64,000 bases of DNA, taken from NCBI GenBank assembly GCA_951406725.2, contig OX597814.1:79050001-79114000 (forward strand), read 5' to 3'. Below, piece by piece: positions 4,177-57,126 of the stretch. The notes beneath the pieces were generated by a model. That model was not told the origin of the DNA. It ran no database searches and saw nothing but the letters and a program-made list of their open reading frames with translations. Within the stretch, counting starts at the first letter, position 1. Every line of letters starts with the position of its first letter. A program made the translations under genes and the position numbers. The DNA comes from Octopus vulgaris (taxonomy: Eukaryota).

Positions 4177-4732
4177 CATATATATCTATACATTTATATG
4201 TACATATATAGTGCATATATACATACATACATATATCATATATAATGTATGAGTTTCTTAGCAATATATTTTTATATCTATATAATTATGTACACTTAAA
4301 CTGATACACACATCCATATTCTTCCTCTACATATACAGAGACAGGCAGCGGCACCATCAGCACCACCATGATGATGATCATCATCATCATCCACGTAATA
4401 TATTTCTTATTTCTAGTTAAGACTGAAATGAATGTCTTGTGTGGCAAACAATTCAGAGAAAAGCATAGTAAAATCCTTCATAATAACTCATTTAAATTTT
4501 CATTTATGAAAGAATAGACACTCAATAATATATATGGACACTAAACAATACCCACCAAAAATTGAAATTGCTCCAATTCAATTTTTAACAAAGACTACAT
4601 AATAACATACATTCACAATTAATGTGGTCACACACACACGCATGCACCTCCCCACGCACACACATTTACACATATACATACACACAGAAATGATTCTTTA
4701 AAAGTGTGCCCATGTGTGTATAAAAATATATA

Positions 4733-5085
4733 TGGCTCTGGTAAGAAGTGACTAGGTGATATGAAGTTTGCTTCCCAACCACATGGTTCCAGGTTCAGTC
4801 CCACAGTATGGCAGTTTAGGCAAGTGTCTTCTATTATAGTGCTGTGTCGACCAAAGCTTTGTGAGTGGATTTGGTAGATGGAAACAAAAAGAAGCCTGAC
4901 ATAAACGTGTGTATGTGCATTTGTCTAGTATTGGTTTGTTATGTCTTTGTAACCTAGCAGTTCAGCAAAGTTGGTGGATAGAATATGCACCAGGTTTTAA
5001 AAAAATAAGTCCTGAGAATGATTTGTTCAACTAAATCTTACAGGGCAGTGTACCAGCTTGGATGTATTCCAAAGACTGAAACAAA
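4733..5085 (+). mobile_element. SINE family A (tRNA-derived head, internal TA/TG microsatellite)
   Basis: TTGCTTCCCAACCACATGGTTCCAGGTTCAGTCCCAC...GTGAGTGGATTTGGTAGA; matches the best-preserved copy at 56256-56638. Confidence 0.85.
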
Positions 5086-5088
5086 ATC

Positions 5089-5395
5089 AGGTGTAGTAGT
5101 TAGGGTATTTGGCTCAGAATCGTAAGGCCATGAGTTCAATTTCAGGCAGCATGTTGTGTCCTTGAACAAGACACTTTATTTCACATTGCTCCAGTTCACC
5201 CAACTGGCAAAAATGAGCAGTACCTGTATTTCAAAGGGCCAGTTTTGTCACGCTCTGTGTCATGCTGAATCTCCTTGAGAACTATGTTAAAGATATGCAT
5301 GTCTGCGGAGTGCTCAGCTACTTGCATGTTAAGTATCAGAAGCAGGTTGACTGGATGAACTGGAACCCTCATCATCGTAACCAACAGACTGCCAG
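5089..5395 (+). mobile_element. SINE family B (tRNA-derived)
   Basis: A/B-box-like head (TAGTAGTTAGGG...GAGTTCAATTTC); body shared with 9659-9975, 10278-10540 and 42042-42360. Confidence 0.85.
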
Positions 5396-5405
5396 TTATA
5401 TATAT

Positions 5406-5680
5406 AACTGGCACTCTGTTGGTTCTGATGACCAGGGTTCCAGTTGATCCAATCAATGGAACAGCCTGCATGTTAAATTAATGTGCAAGTGCCTGAGCAT
5501 ACCATGGACACGTGTACCCTTAATATAGTTCTCAGGGAGATTCAGTGTGACACAGTGTATGACAAAGCTGCTCCTTCGAAATGTGAAATGAAGTGTCTTG
5601 CTCAAGGGCAAAATGCATTGTCAGCAATTCAACTTACAACCTCATGATTGTGAGCTGAATACCTTAACCACGCATCTTTA
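5406..5680 (-). mobile_element. SINE family B, inverted and tail-to-tail with the preceding copy
   Basis: Reverse-complement similarity to 5089-5395 around the palindromic centre TGCCAGTTATATATATAACTGGCA. Confidence 0.85.
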
Positions 5681-5860
5681 CAATTATATAATTATACATA
5701 TGTATATATATAAGTAGTTGAATGAATTATCCTAGTATGGATAATTTGGTTAACCGATACCTGGGTAGCAAATTCACGTCAGAAAAACACGGTTGAAGCT
5801 ACATGCCAAGGGCAGAGATCACGTGCTTTCGTGTGGAAATTTGTGTGTTTTTTAATACAA

Positions 5861-5937
5861 ATAAATGAAAGAATGGAGTTGAACGACGATTTAAAAAATT
5901 TTGTTAAATCGTCGTTCAACTCCATTCTTTCATTTAT
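5861..5937. repeat. Near-perfect 77-bp palindrome (34-bp perfect arms)
   Basis: ATAAATGAAAGAATGGAGTTGAACGACGATTTAA-aaaattttg-TTAAATCGTCGTTCAACTCCATTCTTTCATTTAT. Confidence 0.95.
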
Positions 5938-5940
5938 ATG

Positions 5941-5982
<42 letters not shown>

Positions 5983-6252
5983 CATATACATGTATATATA
6001 TATACATATATATGGTGTGTTATGAGAATTTATGGAAAGGTATCCCATAGAAACTCAACAAATGTGTTAATATGGAAGAGAAATATAAATGGAGTAAAGG
6101 AAGAGAAAAATATAGATCGTGGCAAGTGCTAAAGCATATCCTTGAGGTTCAAATGCCATATTATAAGTAGCAGTGTATTGTGAAGGAAGTGCAGAGGGGG
6201 AGGAGAGAGTTGCAAAAACCTGGGTATATATAGGGTTAGGGTGCTACCAAAC

Positions 6253-6670
6253 AGCAATGATACAGAGGAACAAGGTCATGAGGTCAGGATAGGGGAGTGA
6301 GAACTAGGCATAGTGTATGAAGCAGGAAATGTGAGGAAGAGAAGAGATGTAGAGATGTAGATTGGTTTGTTGAGGTAGGGTGAGTGAAAAGCATTCTTGT
6401 TACATGTGGGTGGAACACACAGGTCAGGGGCTAGCAGAAAGCAATAATAAAGTGAGACAGGTTGTGTAGGTGAAACACACCGGTCAGATGATAGCAGAGA
6501 GCAATGATACAGTGGCACAAGGCCAAGAGAACAGGATTGGAGACTGGGAGAAAAGCATAGTGCATGAACTGGAAATGTGAGGAAGAGAAGAGATGCAGAG
6601 ATGTAGTTTGGTTTGTTGTGGTAGGGTGTGTGAGTAGTTTCCTTGTTAAGTGTGGGTGGGATGCACAACA
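6253..6670. repeat. Diverged direct duplication (about 170-bp core, about 245-bp period)
   Basis: GCAATGATACAG...GGAAATGTGAGGAAGAGAAGAGATG.AGAGATGTAG.TTGGTTTGTTG occurs near 6255 and near 6501. Confidence 0.8.
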
Positions 6671-6686
6671 CTTCTAGAACTCAGTT

Positions 6687-6770
6687 TCATTGATGTGGGC
6701 AGGTCTTCTCTAGAACTTCATATTGCCAGACATCTCGGTCCATTGTCATTTCTTTTGTGAGGCTCAACAC
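6687..6770 (-). mobile_element. RTE LINE ORF C-terminal fragment
   Basis: LSLTKEMTMDRDVWQYEVLEKT aligns to LGLTMEMTRDRDLWKYAVREKT of the RTE ORF at 32864-33526. Confidence 0.7.
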
Positions 6771-6792
6771 ACATACATAAAATGTACATATA

Positions 6793-7400
<608 letters not shown>

Positions 7401-7907
7401 ACTTATGTACATCTATTTTTCTATATATCACATATATTTATAGACATGTCTACATTTTTATCAATGTATATATAATAAATATCTGTATATATACACACAA
7501 ACATACAAATATACTTACTTATATATACGTATATACATACATACACACACACATGCATACGTATACACATAGAAACACACACACATACATATAGATGACA
7601 GCATTAAAAATATAAAACATCTCTGACTTTTTGTATTAAACATAACCCCATTTATCACAGTAACGTTAGAATTGAATGACAGTAATGAAACAAATATCTG
7701 AAACAGACTTCCAGAATCTGTTCAGAACCCACCCTGATGGCTACCCTTCACCTTGCTACTGATTTTAATATGTATCTTTCTATCACCACAAACAGATGCA
7801 TCATTGAGAAATCTAAATTATGGATATTTTAATAGCTAATTTTCATGAAATTACAGGTTGTCAAACTTTGGAAAGAAACATTCATTCTGCAAAAAGGTTT
7901 TGTTTAT

Positions 7908-7939
<32 letters not shown>

Positions 7940-8233
7940 CAAATATATATATGTATTAAACACAGACTGCATTTTTTCCTGTATATATATCATACATACA
8001 AATAATGAAATGGTAATATAATTCTATGCCTGAGAATTCTTGGTTGAATGAAATTTCAAGAAAAATTTATTGAGATAAGTTTATTAGCAAAATTTATAGA
8101 ATGATGGTGAAAAAATTTATATATGCACACATACACATGTACTATAATTATTATTATGATTATTATCATTATTATTATTATACATAATCATATATATACA
8201 TACATACACACATATATACACACACATACAGTC

Positions 8234-8276
<43 letters not shown>

Positions 8277-8845
8277 AAGAAATAAAAATGTAAATGAGTA
8301 GTATAAGATATGGATTCAGAGAATCATGCAGCTATCATAGTAAGCTCCTTTTACAGACTTGGTTATCAGTTCACATAGTAATCAATTATGAAGTAGTGCA
8401 ATGTAAAGTGTTCTTGTAATTGAAAATTCAGAAAATACAAGCAATAAAATTGTTCTGTGAGGAATATATAAAAACAAAATCAGAATGTATGAAAATTTGC
8501 TTAAGGTAAGCATGAAAAAAGGTGGGGTTTCTTCAAAAACACCTACTCTTTGCTTTACTTGTCTCCTGAACTGGTGGTGATGACAAGCATTGCTTTCCCA
8601 ACTAACCTTCTCTAGAAGGTTACACAACAGAAATTGTGAGGTATAATACACCTATATTTTGGGCTTCTTGCACAATTTATCCTATTAATCAATTCTTCAT
8701 CTGCTGTCTGTCTGCCACTCTACCTATTCATCTCTTTATCATTGATTCAACTCCCACTAATCCTCTTTCTTTTGTTTCAGAATACCATACAGCTTGTGTA
8801 ACTAGTCAGCTTACTGACACACTCTCTGTATTCTATTGCCTGAAT

Positions 8846-10997: not shown

Positions 10998-11465
10998 ATA
11001 AGGTGATGAACTGGCAGAATCATTACTTATTTCTTTATTGCCCCAAGGGGCTAAACATAGAGGGGTCAAACAAGGACAGACAAAGGGATTAAGTCGATTA
11101 CATTGGCCCCAGCACGTAACTGGTAGTTAATTTATTGATCCTGAAAGGATGAAAGGCAAAGTTGACCTTGGCGGAATTTGAACTCAGAACATAATGGCCA
11201 ACGAAATACCGCTAAGCATTTTGCCCAATGTGCTAACGTTTCTGGCAGCTCGCCACCGTTCAAAAGCAGAATCATTACTGTGGTGAGCAAAATGCATAGC
11301 AGCATTTCATCTGTCTTTGCATTATGTGCTCAAATTCCACCTATGTTGAATTTGCCTTTCATCCTTTGTAGGGCAATAAAATAAGTACCAGTTGAGCATT
11401 GGAGTTGATGTAATCAACTTACTCCCTCCCCTGGACTTGCTGGCTTTGTGCCAAAATTTGAAATC
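10998..11465 (+). mobile_element. SINE family C with a related minus-strand SINE nested at 11028-11265
   Basis: Outer TSD AATATTTTCATAATGCC (10981-10997 / 11466-11482); inner TSD GCAGAATCATTACT (11014-11027 / 11266-11279). Confidence 0.9.
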
Positions 11466-32056: not shown

Positions 32057-33601
32057 ATCATCATCATCATCATCTTCGTTTAACGTCCGCTTTCCATGCT
32101 AGCATGGGTTGGACGGTTCAACTGGGGAAGCCCGAAGGCTGCACCAGGCCAGTCAGATGTGGCAGTGTTTCTACAGCTGGATGCCCTTCCTAACGCCAAC
32201 CACTCCGAGAGTGTAGTGGGTGATTTTATGTGCCACCGACACAGGTGCCAGACGAGGCTGGCAGACGGCCACGCTCGGATGGTGTTTTTTATGTGCCACC
32301 GACACAGGTGCCAGACGAGGCTGGCAGACGGCCACGCTCGGATGGTGTTTTTTATGTGCCACCGACACAGGTGCCAGACGAGGCTGGCAGACGGCCACGC
32401 TCGGATGGTGTTTTTTATGTGCCACCGACACAGGTGCCAGACGAGGCTGGCAGACGGCCACGCTCGGATGGTGTTTTTTATGTGCCACCGACACAGGTGC
32501 CAGACGAGGCTGGCAGACGGCCACGCTCGGATGGTGTTTTCTTATGTGTCACCGACACAGGTGCCAGACGAGGCTGGCGGACGGCCACGCTCGGATGGTG
32601 TTTGTTACGTGCCCTCAGCACGGAGGCCAGTCATTGCGGTACTGGCTACGGTCACGTTCGGATGGTTTTCTTATGTGCCACCGGCACTGGTACCACAAGG
32701 ATACAAATTCCATTGATGTTCATCTATTTTGATTTGGTTCGATTTGATTTGATACGATTCGATTCTCACTTGCCTCAACAGGTCTTCACAAGTGTCACAA
32801 GAAGGAAGGTATGCACAGGTGGACTGACTACGTCCCAGGTAGGGGCCACGGATTATGGCTTCACTAGTCTTGCTGTGTCTTCTCACGCACAGCATACTTC
32901 CATAGGTCTCGGTCTCTAGTCATTTCCATGGTGAGACCTAACGTCCGAAGGTCGTGCTTCACCACCTCGTCCCAGGTTTTCCTGGGTCTACCTCTTCCAC
33001 GGGTTCCCTCAACTGCTAGGGATTGGCACTTTCTCACACACCTATCTTCATCCATTCTCGCCACATGACCATACCAGCGCAATCGTCTCTCTTGCACACA
33101 ACAACTGATGCTTCTTAGGTACAACATTTCTCTCAAGGTACTAACGCTCTGTCGAGTAAGTACACTGACATTACACATCCATCGGAGCATACTGGCTTCG
33201 TTCCTCACGAGCTTACGCATGTCCTCAGCAGTCACGGCCCATGTTTCACTGCCATGTAGCATAGCTGTTCGTACACATGCATCATACAGTCTGCCTTTTA
33301 CTCTGAGCGAGAGGCCTTTAGTCACCAGCAGAGGTAAGAGCTCCCTAAACTTTGCCCAGGCTATTCTTATTCTAGCAGTTACACTTTCAGCGCACCCACC
33401 CCCACTACTGACTTGGTCACCTAGATAGCGGAAACTATCAACTACTTCTAGTTTTTCCCCCGGAAAGTGACAGAAGTTGTTTTCTGCAGATTTTCGGAGG
33501 TCAATGCTCCAGAGCACCTGCCACATACAAAAACTATCTTCCCAGTTAGCCTACCTTTGACATTGCTGCACCTCTTATGTGTCCATAGCTTACACTGGGT
33601 C
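32057..33601 (-). mobile_element. Young 5'-truncated RTE-clade LINE (RT C-terminus, 3' UTR, (GAT)n tail)
   Basis: ORF 32864-33526 has LEVVDSFRYLGD, RIRIAWAKFREL, MLHGSETW, RRLRWYGHVARM and GRGRPRKTW; (CAT)n tail at 32058-32073. Confidence 0.95.
32225..32690. repeat. 63-bp tandem minisatellite inside the RTE 3' UTR (5 near-identical plus 2 diverged units)
   Basis: Unit TTTATGTGCCACCGACACAGGTGCCAGACGAGGCTGGCAGACGGCCACGCTCGGATGGTGTTT; 21-aa periodicity in the ORF track. Confidence 0.95.
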
Positions 33602-43938: not shown

Positions 43939-44077
43939 ATTTTTATTGATATTTAGCAGAAGTAATGGAGTGACTCAAGGTCTGAGAATTTCGTTCGTTG
44001 GTACTTATCAAACTGATAATGCACAAAACTCTCGGACATTGAGTTAGTATGTTTCTTCTGCTAAATATTAATAAATA
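43939..44077. repeat. Small fold-back element with two degenerate back-to-back HHR cores
   Basis: Arms TTTATTGATATTTAGCAGAAG...GACTCAAGGTCTGAGA / TCTCGGACATTGAGTT...CTTCTGCTAAATATTAATAAA. Confidence 0.7.
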
Positions 44078-44213
44078 TGGCTGTGTGGTAAGAAGCTTGC
44101 TTCCCAACCACATGATTCCAGGTTTAGTCCCACTGCATGGCAAGTGTCTTCTTCCTCGGACTGATTAAAGCCTTGTGAGTGGATTTAGTAGACAGAAACT
44201 GAAAGAAGCCCGT

Positions 44214-54069: not shown

Positions 54070-54107
<38 letters not shown>

Positions 54108-54122
54108 TTAATTATCTCAAGT

Positions 54123-54284
54123 ATAGGTGCAGAAGTGGTGGTGTGGTAAGTAGCTTACTTACCAACCACATGGTTCCAGGTTTGTTCCCACTGCATGGCA
54201 CCTTGGGCAAGCATCTTCTATTATAGCCTCGGGCCGACCAAAGCCTTGTGAGAGGATTTGATAGATGGAAATTGAAAGAAGCCC

Positions 54285-54347
<63 letters not shown>

Positions 54348-54535
54348 CTTTGTGTGTCTGTGTTTGCCCCCACCACCATTGCTTGACAACCGATGTTGGT
54401 GTATTTATGTCCCTGTAACTTGGCAGTTCAGCAAAAGAGACTGATAGTACTAGGCTTACAAAGAATAAGTCCTAGGGTCCTTGTTTGGTTAAAGGCAGTA
54501 CTGCAGCATGGCTGCAGTCAAATGACTGAAAGAAA
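54123..54535 (+). mobile_element. SINE family A
   Basis: Full-length match. Confidence 0.9.
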
Positions 54536-54747
54536 TTATAGAATATAGCTAGCTCTTAAAGGGATGTCAGCATCCAAGGTCCCCAGTTTTATCCAGTGTA
54601 TCAATGAAATACTAACAGATGCTAGCTTCACATTGATTTGTTTGAGTATATTATTATTTATGTATAAGAAAAAGAAAATGGAGAAATTGACATACAGACA
54701 TCAATTTATTAAAACAAATTCAATTTCAAACAATATTAAACTCATAG

Positions 54748-54842
54748 AACCTACAATTGTTTCCATGTCCAATTAATTCAAATAAGAAAATTTAATTAAT
54801 GATTCATGCTGAGTATAGTTAATTGGACATTTCCTCAGAGTC
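54748..54842 (-). ncRNA. Type I hammerhead ribozyme motif, long stem II
   Basis: GACT-CTGAGGA-A-ATGTCCAATTAA...TTAATTGGACAT-G-GAAA-CAATTG-TA-GGTT. Confidence 0.65.
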
Positions 54843-55124
54843 AGGACTTGATAGAAAAAGGAACTACATCCCAATGTATTGACTGATCATTGGTAGGCTC
54901 AGCATTAAATTAAGATAAATGTGCGCTTGTGCATTCTAATGTATTTAAAAACAAAACCCGCTAAAACATCGTCTAGGCCACCTAATGGTTCCTTTGTTTT
55001 TCAACACGTAACAGTTTCTTTTAAATACATTAGAATGCACAAGCACATATATCTGAATTTAATGCTGAGTCTACCAATGATCAATCAACACATTGGGATG
55101 TAGTTTCTTTTTCTAACAAGTTCT

Positions 55125-55219
55125 GACCCTGACGATATGTTCAATTAACTATATTCAATATGAATCTTTAATTGAATTTTCTTATTTGAATTAACTGGAC
55201 ATGGAAACAATTGTAGGTT
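55125..55219 (+). ncRNA. Type I hammerhead ribozyme motif, long stem II
   Basis: GACC-CTGACGA-T-ATGTTCAATTAA...TTAACTGGACAT-G-GAAA-CAATTG-TA-GGTT; predicted GUA cleavage after 55215. Confidence 0.65.
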
Positions 55220-55413
55220 CTATGAGTTGGATATTGTTCGAAATTGGATTCGTTTGAATAAATTGATGTCTATATGTCAATTTTTCCATTTTCTTTTGCT
55301 CATACATAAATGATGTGTGTGTGTGTGTGTGCGTGCATGTGTGTTACATAAAACGAGACAACAAAGCCAAGGCAGTGTGAAATTTCTAGGACCTTTTATA
55401 AAGAGAAAGGTAG

Positions 55414-55459
55414 TCTTACAGCTGTTTCAGGGATATAAAAGATATCCCATCATCAGAGA
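55414..55459 (-). ncRNA. Minimal type I hammerhead ribozyme motif
   Basis: TCT-CTGATGA-T-GGGATAT-CTTTT-ATATCCC-T-GAAA-CAGCTG-TA-AGA: intact core, palindromic stem III. Confidence 0.75.
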
Positions 55460-55666
55460 TGACATGAGAGAGCTAAATAGAAGGAAATAGTTGAGTTCAA
55501 TATAAGAGGTTATTTTGGAAAGGGAGAGAAATATGAAGTATAAAAGGAAATACTTTTTTTTATTTTTATTCTTATACTACCCTTTATGATTTCTATATCT
55601 CTACTTTTCCAAAATAACTTGTCATATTGAACTCAACTATTTCCTTCTATTTAACTCTCTCATATT

Positions 55667-55714
55667 GTCTCTGATAATGGGATAACTTTTATTTCCCTGA
55701 AACAGCTGTAAAAC
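55667..55714 (+). ncRNA. Hammerhead motif, core-mutated copy (CTGATAA)
   Basis: GTCT-CTGATAA-TGGGATAACTTTTATTTCCCT-GAAA-CAGCTG-TA-AAAC. Confidence 0.55.
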
Positions 55715-55947
55715 TACCATTCTCTTTATAAAAGGTCCTAGAAATTTCAAACTGCCTTGGCTTTCTTGTTTCATTGTATTTAAGATATACATGCTCACAA
55801 ATGACCCATGTTAAACTCCTCACTCATACTTTTATCAAACCAGAAGTCTAACAGTGGTCCTTCTATAGCACATACATAGACTCAACTGTCTTTTCAATAT
55901 TCTCAATACCAAAACCTTTCATATAAATTCATATATATATATATATA

Positions 55948-55983
<36 letters not shown>

Positions 55984-56255
55984 ATATGAAAGAAGGTTTG
56001 AAAATGCAATTTTAAAAATGCTTATTCACTTGAGTGGTTTCACTTTTTTAGAAAAAGATTGTCAAAAGTAAAATGTAAAGCTTTGTATGAGCTTTGTTGT
56101 GTTAAGTACTGGTTATCACAAAAGTATTAAAATAGATATATACATTCTTTGAAAATAATAAGAAAATGTTAAAAACATTTTACAAGAAAGTATTTAAGGA
56201 AACATTTTGAGTTCAATAAAAATCCTGTTTGTTTGGTAGTATATATATATAGTAT

Positions 56256-56636
56256 AGGCGCAGGAGTGGCTGTGTGGTAAGTAGCTTGCTAACCAACCAC
56301 ATGGTTGCGGGTTCAGTCCCACTGCGTGGTATCTTGGGCAAGTGTCTTCTGCTATAGTCCTGGGCCGACCAATGACTTGTGAGTGGATTTGGTAGACGGA
56401 AACTGAAAGAAGCCTGTCGTATATATGTATATATATATATGTGTGTGTGTGCTTGTGTTTGTCCCCCTAGCATTGCTTGACAACCGATGCTGGAGTGTTT
56501 ATGTCCCCGTCACTTAGCGGTTCGGCAAAAGAGACCGATAGAATAAGTACTGGGCTTACAAAGAATAAGTCCCGGGGTCGATTTGCTCGACTAAAGGTGG
56601 TGCTCCAGCATGGCCGCAGTCAAATGACTGAAACAA

Positions 56637-56638
<2 letters not shown>
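56256..56638 (+). mobile_element. SINE family A, best-preserved copy
   Basis: GGCGCAGGAGTGGCTGTGTGGTAAG (A box) ... GGTTCAGTCCC (B box); CpGs retained. Confidence 0.92.
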
Positions 56639-56691
<53 letters not shown>

Positions 56692-56692
<1 letters not shown>

Positions 56693-57126
56693 TGATGTCT
56701 CCCCTATCTCCCCTATATAGGAGCATTGCGGAACGACTAAATGAACATCTGAGACAATATGACAACAAAAAAACAGTCCTCCAAACTCTACCAACATGGT
56801 GGCAACCTGGATCAACTTGACATCCGCATCTTATCCGAGCACCCAAAAGACCCAACACTCAGACAAATATGGGAGTACATCCTTATAAATGAAACTTCCC
56901 CAATACTCTTGTGTGACCCCTCTGTCCAGCATTTGCCATGATAGATCGCTAGCCACTACACATTCTTTATTTTCTCTCCTTATTTCTTTCTGTGTTCCTT
57001 TCTGTGGAAGAGAATAGGCTCGAAATGTTAAAGACTTTTTCCCTTCCCAAGTGTTAAACTAATACATTTGTTTGTTGTCTACACCACCTGTCTTCGTCCT
57101 TTGTTTTTTTTTGTGAATTCTCCCCC
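56692..57126 (+). mobile_element. Penelope-like element 3' fragment (GIY-YIG end plus pLTR-like tail)
   Basis: Plus-strand RSIAERLNEHLRQ...SKLYQH...IRILSEHPKDPTLRQIWEYILI; YIGE(IGE)TS on the opposite strand just upstream; decayed HHR-like GGAAGAGAATAGGCTCGAAATGTTA at 57005-57030. Confidence 0.7.

What the first reader, a model, noticed from the sequence alone, without database searches (positions are those of the whole stretch)
55352..55774. Second, unrelated HHR fold-back only about 40 bp from the first
Seen: inverted arms of about 195 bp with no similarity to fold-back 1 but the same design. The left arm has a minus-strand minimal HHR (TCT-CTGATGA-stem II GGGATAT/ATATCCC-GAAA-CAGCTG-TA-AGA). 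The right arm has a plus-strand copy with G8 changed to A. Both elements show a GUA site and a 6-bp palindrome in stem III (CAGCTG versus CAATTG). Inference: the same architecture in independent families points to a general class of palindromic ribozyme-bearing retroelements rather than chance, and their adjacency in TG/TA repeats suggests a shared target preference.
Basis: partly seen in the sequence, partly recalled or inferred. Interest (0 to 1): 0.75.

Follow-up and report, generated by a model that had tools for sequence, protein, structure and literature searches.

The report
Head-to-head Penelope retroelement insertion remnant
This hairpin-shaped stretch is two tail ends of one common repeat joined head to head, each with a damaged hammerhead ribozyme motif, and it is likely the ordinary decayed leftover of a Penelope-like jumping-gene insertion rather than a new kind of element.

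Summary
The fold-back and both hammerhead motifs are real: 209-nt arms, 87% complementary, and a strict descriptor finds 3 hits in the window and none in 200 shuffles. The 'new class of palindromic retroelement' reading is not supported. Contigs of three DNA runs show the arm is a high-copy repeat and that G8A is a lesion of this copy (86-95% of family depth reads G). The 22-nt 'spacer' is simply more family sequence of the right arm, the right arm runs on about 95 nt further at its 3' end, and other copies fold back at other positions. The two arms share two minority variants, so they likely arose in one event and then decayed. [quoted passage not shown] Opposite-strand hammerhead pairs 100-700 bp apart were described in 2014. 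No reverse transcriptase could be linked to this family, so PLE membership rests on architecture. The scan noted the same pattern before in other genomes. Interest is low.

The parts
55330..55552 (-). Left arm: inverted, more strongly 5'-truncated copy of the family 3' end; its outer end runs into (AC)n
   Evidence: high summed depth in three DNA runs, 33/44/41 contigs continue past 55552 with family sequence
55414..55459 (-). Type I hammerhead motif, core boxes intact, U-U at 10.1-11.1, 7-bp stem II, CAGCTG palindromic loop III, 3-bp stem I; predicted cut between 55417 and 55416
   Evidence: loose ends behind 55459 begin with C in 26/26/41/6 contigs, so the family stem I is likely 4 bp and this copy lost one pair
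55552..55553 (.). Head-to-head junction; no real spacer
   Evidence: 55556-55574 matches the reverse complement of the family loose-end consensus at 18 of 19 letters (read by eye); one listed contig (run X11, record 13, depth 32.6) bridges it
55553..55799 (+). Right arm: main 5'-truncated copy, about 22 nt longer at its 5' end than the left arm
55668..55713 (+). Decayed hammerhead motif: G8A at 55676 with C3 unchanged, stem I broken at 55712, stem II weakened
   Evidence: family depth reads G at 55676 in 10236 of 11894, 10534 of 11963 and 10969 of 11595
55800..55894 (+). One-sided 3' extension (tail-like), about 95 nt; end point approximate
   Evidence: summed depth 4600-6000 in bin 55802-55847, 190-450 at 55880, 61-157 in bin 55894-55920; loose ends behind 55879 resemble the window to about 55894 (compared by eye)
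55315..55329 (.). (TG)n between fold-back 1 and fold-back 2
   Evidence: read laying skipped this repeat
54560..55314 (.). Context: fold-back 1, unrelated family, arms 54653-54924 and 55043-55314, hammerheads at -54752..54838 and +55129..55215 with a long stem II loop, one-sided extension to 54560 or beyond, abutting a SINE-like repeat's 3' end

Best explanation
The stretch is two 5'-truncated 3' ends of one high-copy repeat joined head to head, likely left by a single insertion of a Penelope-like retroelement and decayed since. Inferred mechanism: a PLE GIY-YIG endonuclease nicks a TG/TA microsatellite, the reverse transcriptase copies only the last 250-340 nt of the RNA (the pseudo-LTR, which holds the hammerhead), and a second, inverted copy is made at the 5' end by snap-back or by priming on the other strand. 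Each arm therefore carries the hammerhead reading outward. In the parent element the motif would work as a dimer through its CAGCUG loop in tandem transcripts; here it is likely a passenger. On either strand the antisense arm is transcribed before the sense ribozyme, so a read-through RNA is predicted to lock it in a hairpin. Shown: geometry, copy abundance, private G8A, shared minority variants, other junctions in other copies. Inferred: PLE parentage, single event, priming route, inactivity.
For: (contigs of runs X1, X2, X11): summed depth up to 129,000-143,000 over the outer left arm against about 30-56 for single DNA contigs, falling to 4,500-8,300 at the inner ends, as 5' truncation predicts; loose ends show no spacer; one-sided extension. 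Other junctions across the centre: 55521->55638 (X1, X2), 55552->55645 (X11), 55431->55639 (X1, kind not shown); for fold-back 1, 55054/55128 opposite strands and 54895->55049; of 8 family-majority differences tested in the arms, 5 are private to one arm and 3 rows (two mirrored sites, 55492/55635 and 55393/55734) are shared by both arms; whole hairpin -266.9 kcal/mol against -193.5 with the ribozyme forced; two monomers cofold through the 8-bp palindrome. Literature: PMC4209133 gives PLE minimal hammerheads helix II 7-8 bp, helix I 4-5 bp, palindromic loop 3 and 'dual min-HHRs ... (~100-700 bp) but in opposite strands'; PMC8557442 and PMC3846280 give the adjacent inverted truncated copy, unequal arm lengths, one-sided tail, head-to-head geometry and microsatellite bias. 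A GIY-YIG-like end followed by a decayed minimal hammerhead lies 800 nt away in (TA)n, so hammerhead-bearing PLE-like ends occur in this genome.
Against: No RT or endonuclease ORF was linked to this family; only 30 letters of upstream family sequence were seen. No target-site duplication was found (longest flanking direct repeat 8 nt). The extension is about 95 nt, against 30-40 bp in the papers read. Positions 10.1-11.1 are U-U, not the G-C that PMC4209133 calls highly conserved. Fold-back 1 showed 0 shared variants in 11 rows tested. tables are cut (15 of 169 joints, 32 of 8490 pieces, 40 of 304 differences), and summed depth is not a copy number.
Confidence: 0.8

Rival explanations
1. The family is a non-autonomous, ORF-less hammerhead repeat (solo pseudo-LTR or non-LTR retrozyme type) moved in trans by a PLE enzyme; the fold-back still forms anew at each insertion.
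For: No ORF link found; inner-end depth is about ten times lower than outer depth; bioRxiv 10.64898/2026.07.22.740005 (first fifth of text) argues that animal retrozymes are PLE derivatives with monomer copies.
Against: No tandem head-to-tail unit is seen here; truncation alone explains the depth slope; the family continues upstream of the junction.
Confidence: 0.12
2. The palindrome itself is the mobile unit: a hairpin element with one ribozyme per strand that is copied whole.
For: Both arms share two minority variants, which a palindromic master would also give; one contig of another organism label bridges the same centre; two unrelated families show the design side by side.
Against: That contig has single-copy depth and may be the orthologous site; 33-44 contigs per run leave the palindrome at 55552; other copies have different junctions; G8A is private; the hairpin is predicted to block the ribozyme by about 73 kcal/mol.
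Confidence: 0.05
3. A MITE-like DNA element or a later local inverted duplication, with the hammerhead motif incidental to it.
For: Four other palindromic loci in the window lack the motif; shared variants also fit a local duplication.
Against: No fixed termini, no TSD, unequal ends and variable centres; the motif is conserved in the family and absent from shuffles; two unrelated families fold back in the same head-to-head sense.
Confidence: 0.03

Closest known systems
Insertion units of endonuclease-positive Penelope-like elements (Penelope/Poseidon, Neptune, Nematis clades; PMC8557442, PMC3846280, PMC8969392)
   Same: 5'-truncated copy with an immediately adjacent inverted truncated copy, head-to-head, unequal arms, one-sided 3' extension, microsatellite surroundings, TSD not discernible.
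   Different: No ORF left; extension about 95 nt rather than 30-40; clade not determinable.
Minimal type I hammerheads of metazoan PLE pseudo-LTRs (PMC4209133)
   Same: Type I, long helix II, short helix I, palindromic loop 3, pairs on opposite strands 100-700 bp apart (here about 250 bp).
   Different: 6-nt palindrome; U-U (A-U in some family copies) at 10.1-11.1 instead of G-C; G8A is not compensated by U3.
Non-LTR retrozymes of animals (bioRxiv 10.64898/2026.07.22.740005; PMC7229834 seen as search listing only)
   Same: Short non-coding high-copy repeat with a type I dimer hammerhead.
   Different: Retrozymes are head-to-tail tandem units; this is head-to-head with variable truncation.

Membership tests
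Penelope-like element | Telomerase-like RT with GIY-YIG endonuclease ORF linked to the repeat | not testable with these tools
   No genome held; arms give no long frame; only 30 upstream family letters seen
Penelope-like element | Variable 5' truncation | tested here: met
   Depth falls about tenfold toward inner ends; family continues past this copy's ends
Penelope-like element | Inverted 5'-truncated copy directly adjacent, head to head, position varying by insertion | tested here: met
   Junction 55552/55553; other junctions in other copies
Penelope-like element | One-sided 30-40 bp tail | tested here: inconclusive
   One-sided extension present but about 95 nt
Penelope-like element | Target-site duplication or microsatellite target | tested here: inconclusive
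   No TSD above 8 nt; left end abuts (TG)n, right end 27 nt from (TA)n(TG)n; 9.8% of the window lies within 60 nt of such a run
PLE-type minimal hammerhead | Core CUGANGA, GAAA, UH in type I topology | tested here: met
   Left arm; family G at position 8; not met in the right arm copy
PLE-type minimal hammerhead | Palindromic helix III loop allowing dimers | tested here: met
   CAGCTG; predicted intermolecular 8 bp in cofold
PLE-type minimal hammerhead | G10.1-C11.1 pair with one unpaired base after A9 | tested here: not met
   U on both sides of stem II in both arms; some family copies read A-U (loose ends)
PLE-type minimal hammerhead | Self-cleavage | not testable with these tools
   Only contigs were available; they cannot show RNA ends
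Non-LTR retrozyme | Head-to-tail tandem monomers | tested here: not met
   No tandem unit at this locus; not tested genome-wide
MITE | Fixed termini, shared centre, TSD | tested here: not met
   Unequal ends, variable centres, no TSD

The most novel reading that the evidence does not exclude
A subfamily of these head-to-head units is re-mobilised whole: the hairpin, carrying one dimer-type hammerhead per strand, is copied in trans by a PLE enzyme as a palindromic non-autonomous retroelement, in at least two unrelated families.
Probability: 0.05. Interest if true: 0.55.

Novelty: new member of a known kind. Interest (0 to 1): 0.15.

Why it matters
As read, it matters little: it is one more decayed example of a described insertion pattern, in families whose hammerheads were not found in print in two searches. 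Its use is as material: thousands of such junctions could be tabulated to test snap-back against two-strand priming, a step of PLE integration that PMC8557442 and PMC11167929 leave open. If the palindrome were copied whole, it would be a new non-autonomous retroelement type.

Tried and rejected
Own-genome search: none held. Rfam: 0 at gathering score; 12 matches at E up to 10, all generic hairpin families below their cut-offs, no hammerhead. Metagenome pattern scan: 3 loci (L001-L003), none with similarity to the elements or an inverted repeat; rejected as chance. Expression: no RNA holder listed; run X20, RNA only by guess, has family contigs over fold-back 2, which says nothing about this locus or about cleavage. 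Most 'opposite strands' joints have coordinate sums near the mirror axis and were read as arm swaps at indels, not as fold-backs. TSD search negative. Six-frame reading of the arms gave no convincing ORF. A 5-of-6-nt self-complement in family sequence at the junction could allow snap-back, but rests on a consensus with 0.63-0.66 agreement and is not counted. Neighbour peptide: Pfam 0 families for both pieces, word search none, Atlas no usable hit for the first piece. Monomer folds of four motifs are no better than shuffles (z -1.3 to 0.1). PMC5785218 is not held. Supplements of the papers were not read; they may list these families.

Full report
Setting. The window is 33-36% GC in most bins, rich in TA/TG microsatellites and dispersed repeats, with no Rfam match at gathering score. 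It reads as animal non-coding DNA. The SINE-like repeats beside the finding look like octopus repeats to me; that label is recalled, comes from no call and carries no weight in the verdict. No whole genome is held.

Observation. The fold-back is real: arms 55344-55552 and 55575-55783, 209 nt, 87% complementary, with 28 ungapped mismatches, 15 transitions and 13 transversions. With one 2-nt gap it extends to 55330 and 55799. The predicted RNA hairpin is -266.9 kcal/mol, z -34.7. A strict type I hammerhead descriptor with a palindromic stem III finds 3 hits in the window, two in fold-back 1 and one in the left arm of fold-back 2, and none in 200 dinucleotide shuffles; relaxing G8 adds the right-arm copy and one unrelated weak hit. 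Self-BLAST shows 6 locally palindromic loci in the window; 2 of the 6 carry the motif. The two fold-backs share no real similarity (score 30, reached by 7 of 300 shuffles).

Family evidence. I laid 4 of the 24 listed runs: three DNA-guessed runs under three organism labels and one RNA-guessed run, all contigs, at 80% likeness. Summed depth over the outer left arm reaches 129,000-143,000 in the DNA runs, against about 30-56 for single contigs; this is not a copy number, but it points to a family in the order of a thousand copies or more. At 55676 the family reads G in 10236 of 11894, 10534 of 11963 and 10969 of 11595 depth units, so G8A is a lesion of this copy and not a design feature. Behind 55552, 33, 44 and 41 contigs continue with a consensus whose reverse complement matches window 55556-55574 at 18 of 19 letters (compared by eye). 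The 'spacer' is therefore the right arm's longer 5' part and the arms meet directly at about 55552/55553. On the other side the right arm stays high-copy to about 55870 and low-copy to about 55894, some 95 nt past the mirror of the left end. Fold-back 1 shows the same asymmetry on its left side, to 54560 or beyond.

Junctions. Among the 15 of 169 joints and 12 of 37 insert rows shown, other copies cross the centre at 55521->55638 (X1, X2), 55552->55645 (X11) and 55431->55639 (X1; kind not printed), each at depth 52-138. For fold-back 1, 55054/55128 changes strand within one arm. One of the 32 of 8490 pieces shown bridges this copy's own centre (X11 record 13, depth 32.6, 18 differences in 177), and another spans the right arm into the flank; these may be the orthologous site and argue against an assembly artefact. 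Because the tables are cut, a small subfamily with the same centre is not excluded.

One event, then decay. Nine rows of the difference table fall in the mirrored arms; I dropped one (55683, a minority letter) and tested 8. Five are private to one arm, the other arm matching the family. Three rows, forming two mirrored sites (55492/55635 and 55393/55734), carry the same minority letter in both arms. That fits both arms coming from one template, followed by about 7% change per arm (Jukes-Cantor 0.148 between arms). For fold-back 1 I tested the 11 of 23 rows where the other letter dominated; all 11 were private and none shared.

How it would work. In both arms the ribozyme reads outward, so on either strand the antisense arm is made first. 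Forcing the left motif to fold inside the full hairpin costs about 73 kcal/mol. The monomer does not adopt the active fold on its own; two monomers pair through the 8-bp palindrome, although the full active dimer (-25.5) is less stable than the cofold minimum (-34.5). So this locus is predicted to be inert, and the motif makes sense only in a parent element with tandem pseudo-LTRs. These are predictions; cleavage was not tested.

Comparison with what is known. PMC4209133 (first two of four parts read) describes PLE minimal hammerheads with helix II of 7-8 bp, helix I of 4-5 bp and a palindromic loop 3, and reports dual motifs about 100-700 bp apart on opposite strands, with most motifs attributed to truncated PLEs. 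It also calls G10.1-C11.1 highly conserved, which this family does not meet. PMC8557442 (passages) describes the adjacent inverted 5'-truncated copy, a 30-40 bp one-sided tail, and a microsatellite bias that hides TSDs. PMC3846280 (passages) describes unequal inverted pseudo-LTRs, head-to-head geometry and a self-priming explanation. PMC11167929 (first two of four parts) ties the tail to internal initiation of reverse transcription and finds G8 essential for cleavage but cleavage dispensable for insertion in vitro. PMC8969392 and PMC6765202 (passages) agree, the latter noting that PLEs tend to insert into or beside other PLEs. PMC13282606 (passages) lists 31 recently active Penelope-like families in Octopus vulgaris and does not use the word ribozyme. 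Two searches for octopus with hammerhead ribozyme listed no description of these families; supplements were not read. The element works like a PLE insertion unit; membership is not proven because the ORF could not be tested.

Adjacency. Fold-back 1 begins at the 3' end of a SINE-like repeat, 15 nt of (TG)n separate it from fold-back 2, and (TA)n(TG)n follows 27 nt after the inferred right end. The second SINE copy ends in (TA)n, and within that run sits a third insert, 56690-57125, with a frameshifted GIY-YIG-like end (Atlas nearest named cluster PF01541 on 15% of members, score 0.90; P0005, E 6.6e-05, matches both pieces by eye; Pfam itself finds nothing) and a decayed minimal hammerhead at 57002-57030. 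It is not a fold-back and is not shown to be related.

Earlier notes of this scan reached the same reading for similar fold-backs in other genomes. My reading was entered before I saw them, and they are not independent evidence.

Verdict. Real feature, known kind, uncharacterised families. Best reading 0.80, ORF-less PLE passenger 0.12, whole-palindrome unit 0.05, MITE or local duplication 0.03. Interest 0.15.

Noticed in passing
window 56690-57125 (+): Insert between two (TA)n runs with a frameshifted GIY-YIG-like C-terminal piece (56692-56938) and a decayed minimal hammerhead at 57002-57030; likely the 3' end of a third PLE family, not a fold-back.
   Followed up: partly
window 54560-55314: Fold-back 1 has both hammerhead cores intact, with a stem II of 8-12 bp closed by a loop of about 45 nt, and a one-sided extension to the SINE-like repeat's end; other copies fold back elsewhere.
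   Followed up: partly
window 5096-5671 and 11084-11427: Older palindromes (75% and 68%) built from dispersed repeats found several times in the window in both orientations; no strict hammerhead.
   Followed up: partly
window 5855-5943 and 43939-44078: Short palindromes (94% and 71%) with no other copy in the window and no strict hammerhead.
   Followed up: no
window 54105-54546 and 56240-56637: Two copies of a SINE-like repeat about 83% alike; each has a hammerhead-bearing insert at its 3' end.
   Followed up: partly
window 32224-32613 and 32864-33550 (-): A 63-nt tandem repeat (6.2 copies, 97%) beside a 228-aa open frame that looks like a LINE C-terminus (resemblance recalled; Pfam gives nothing above cut-off).
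   Followed up: no
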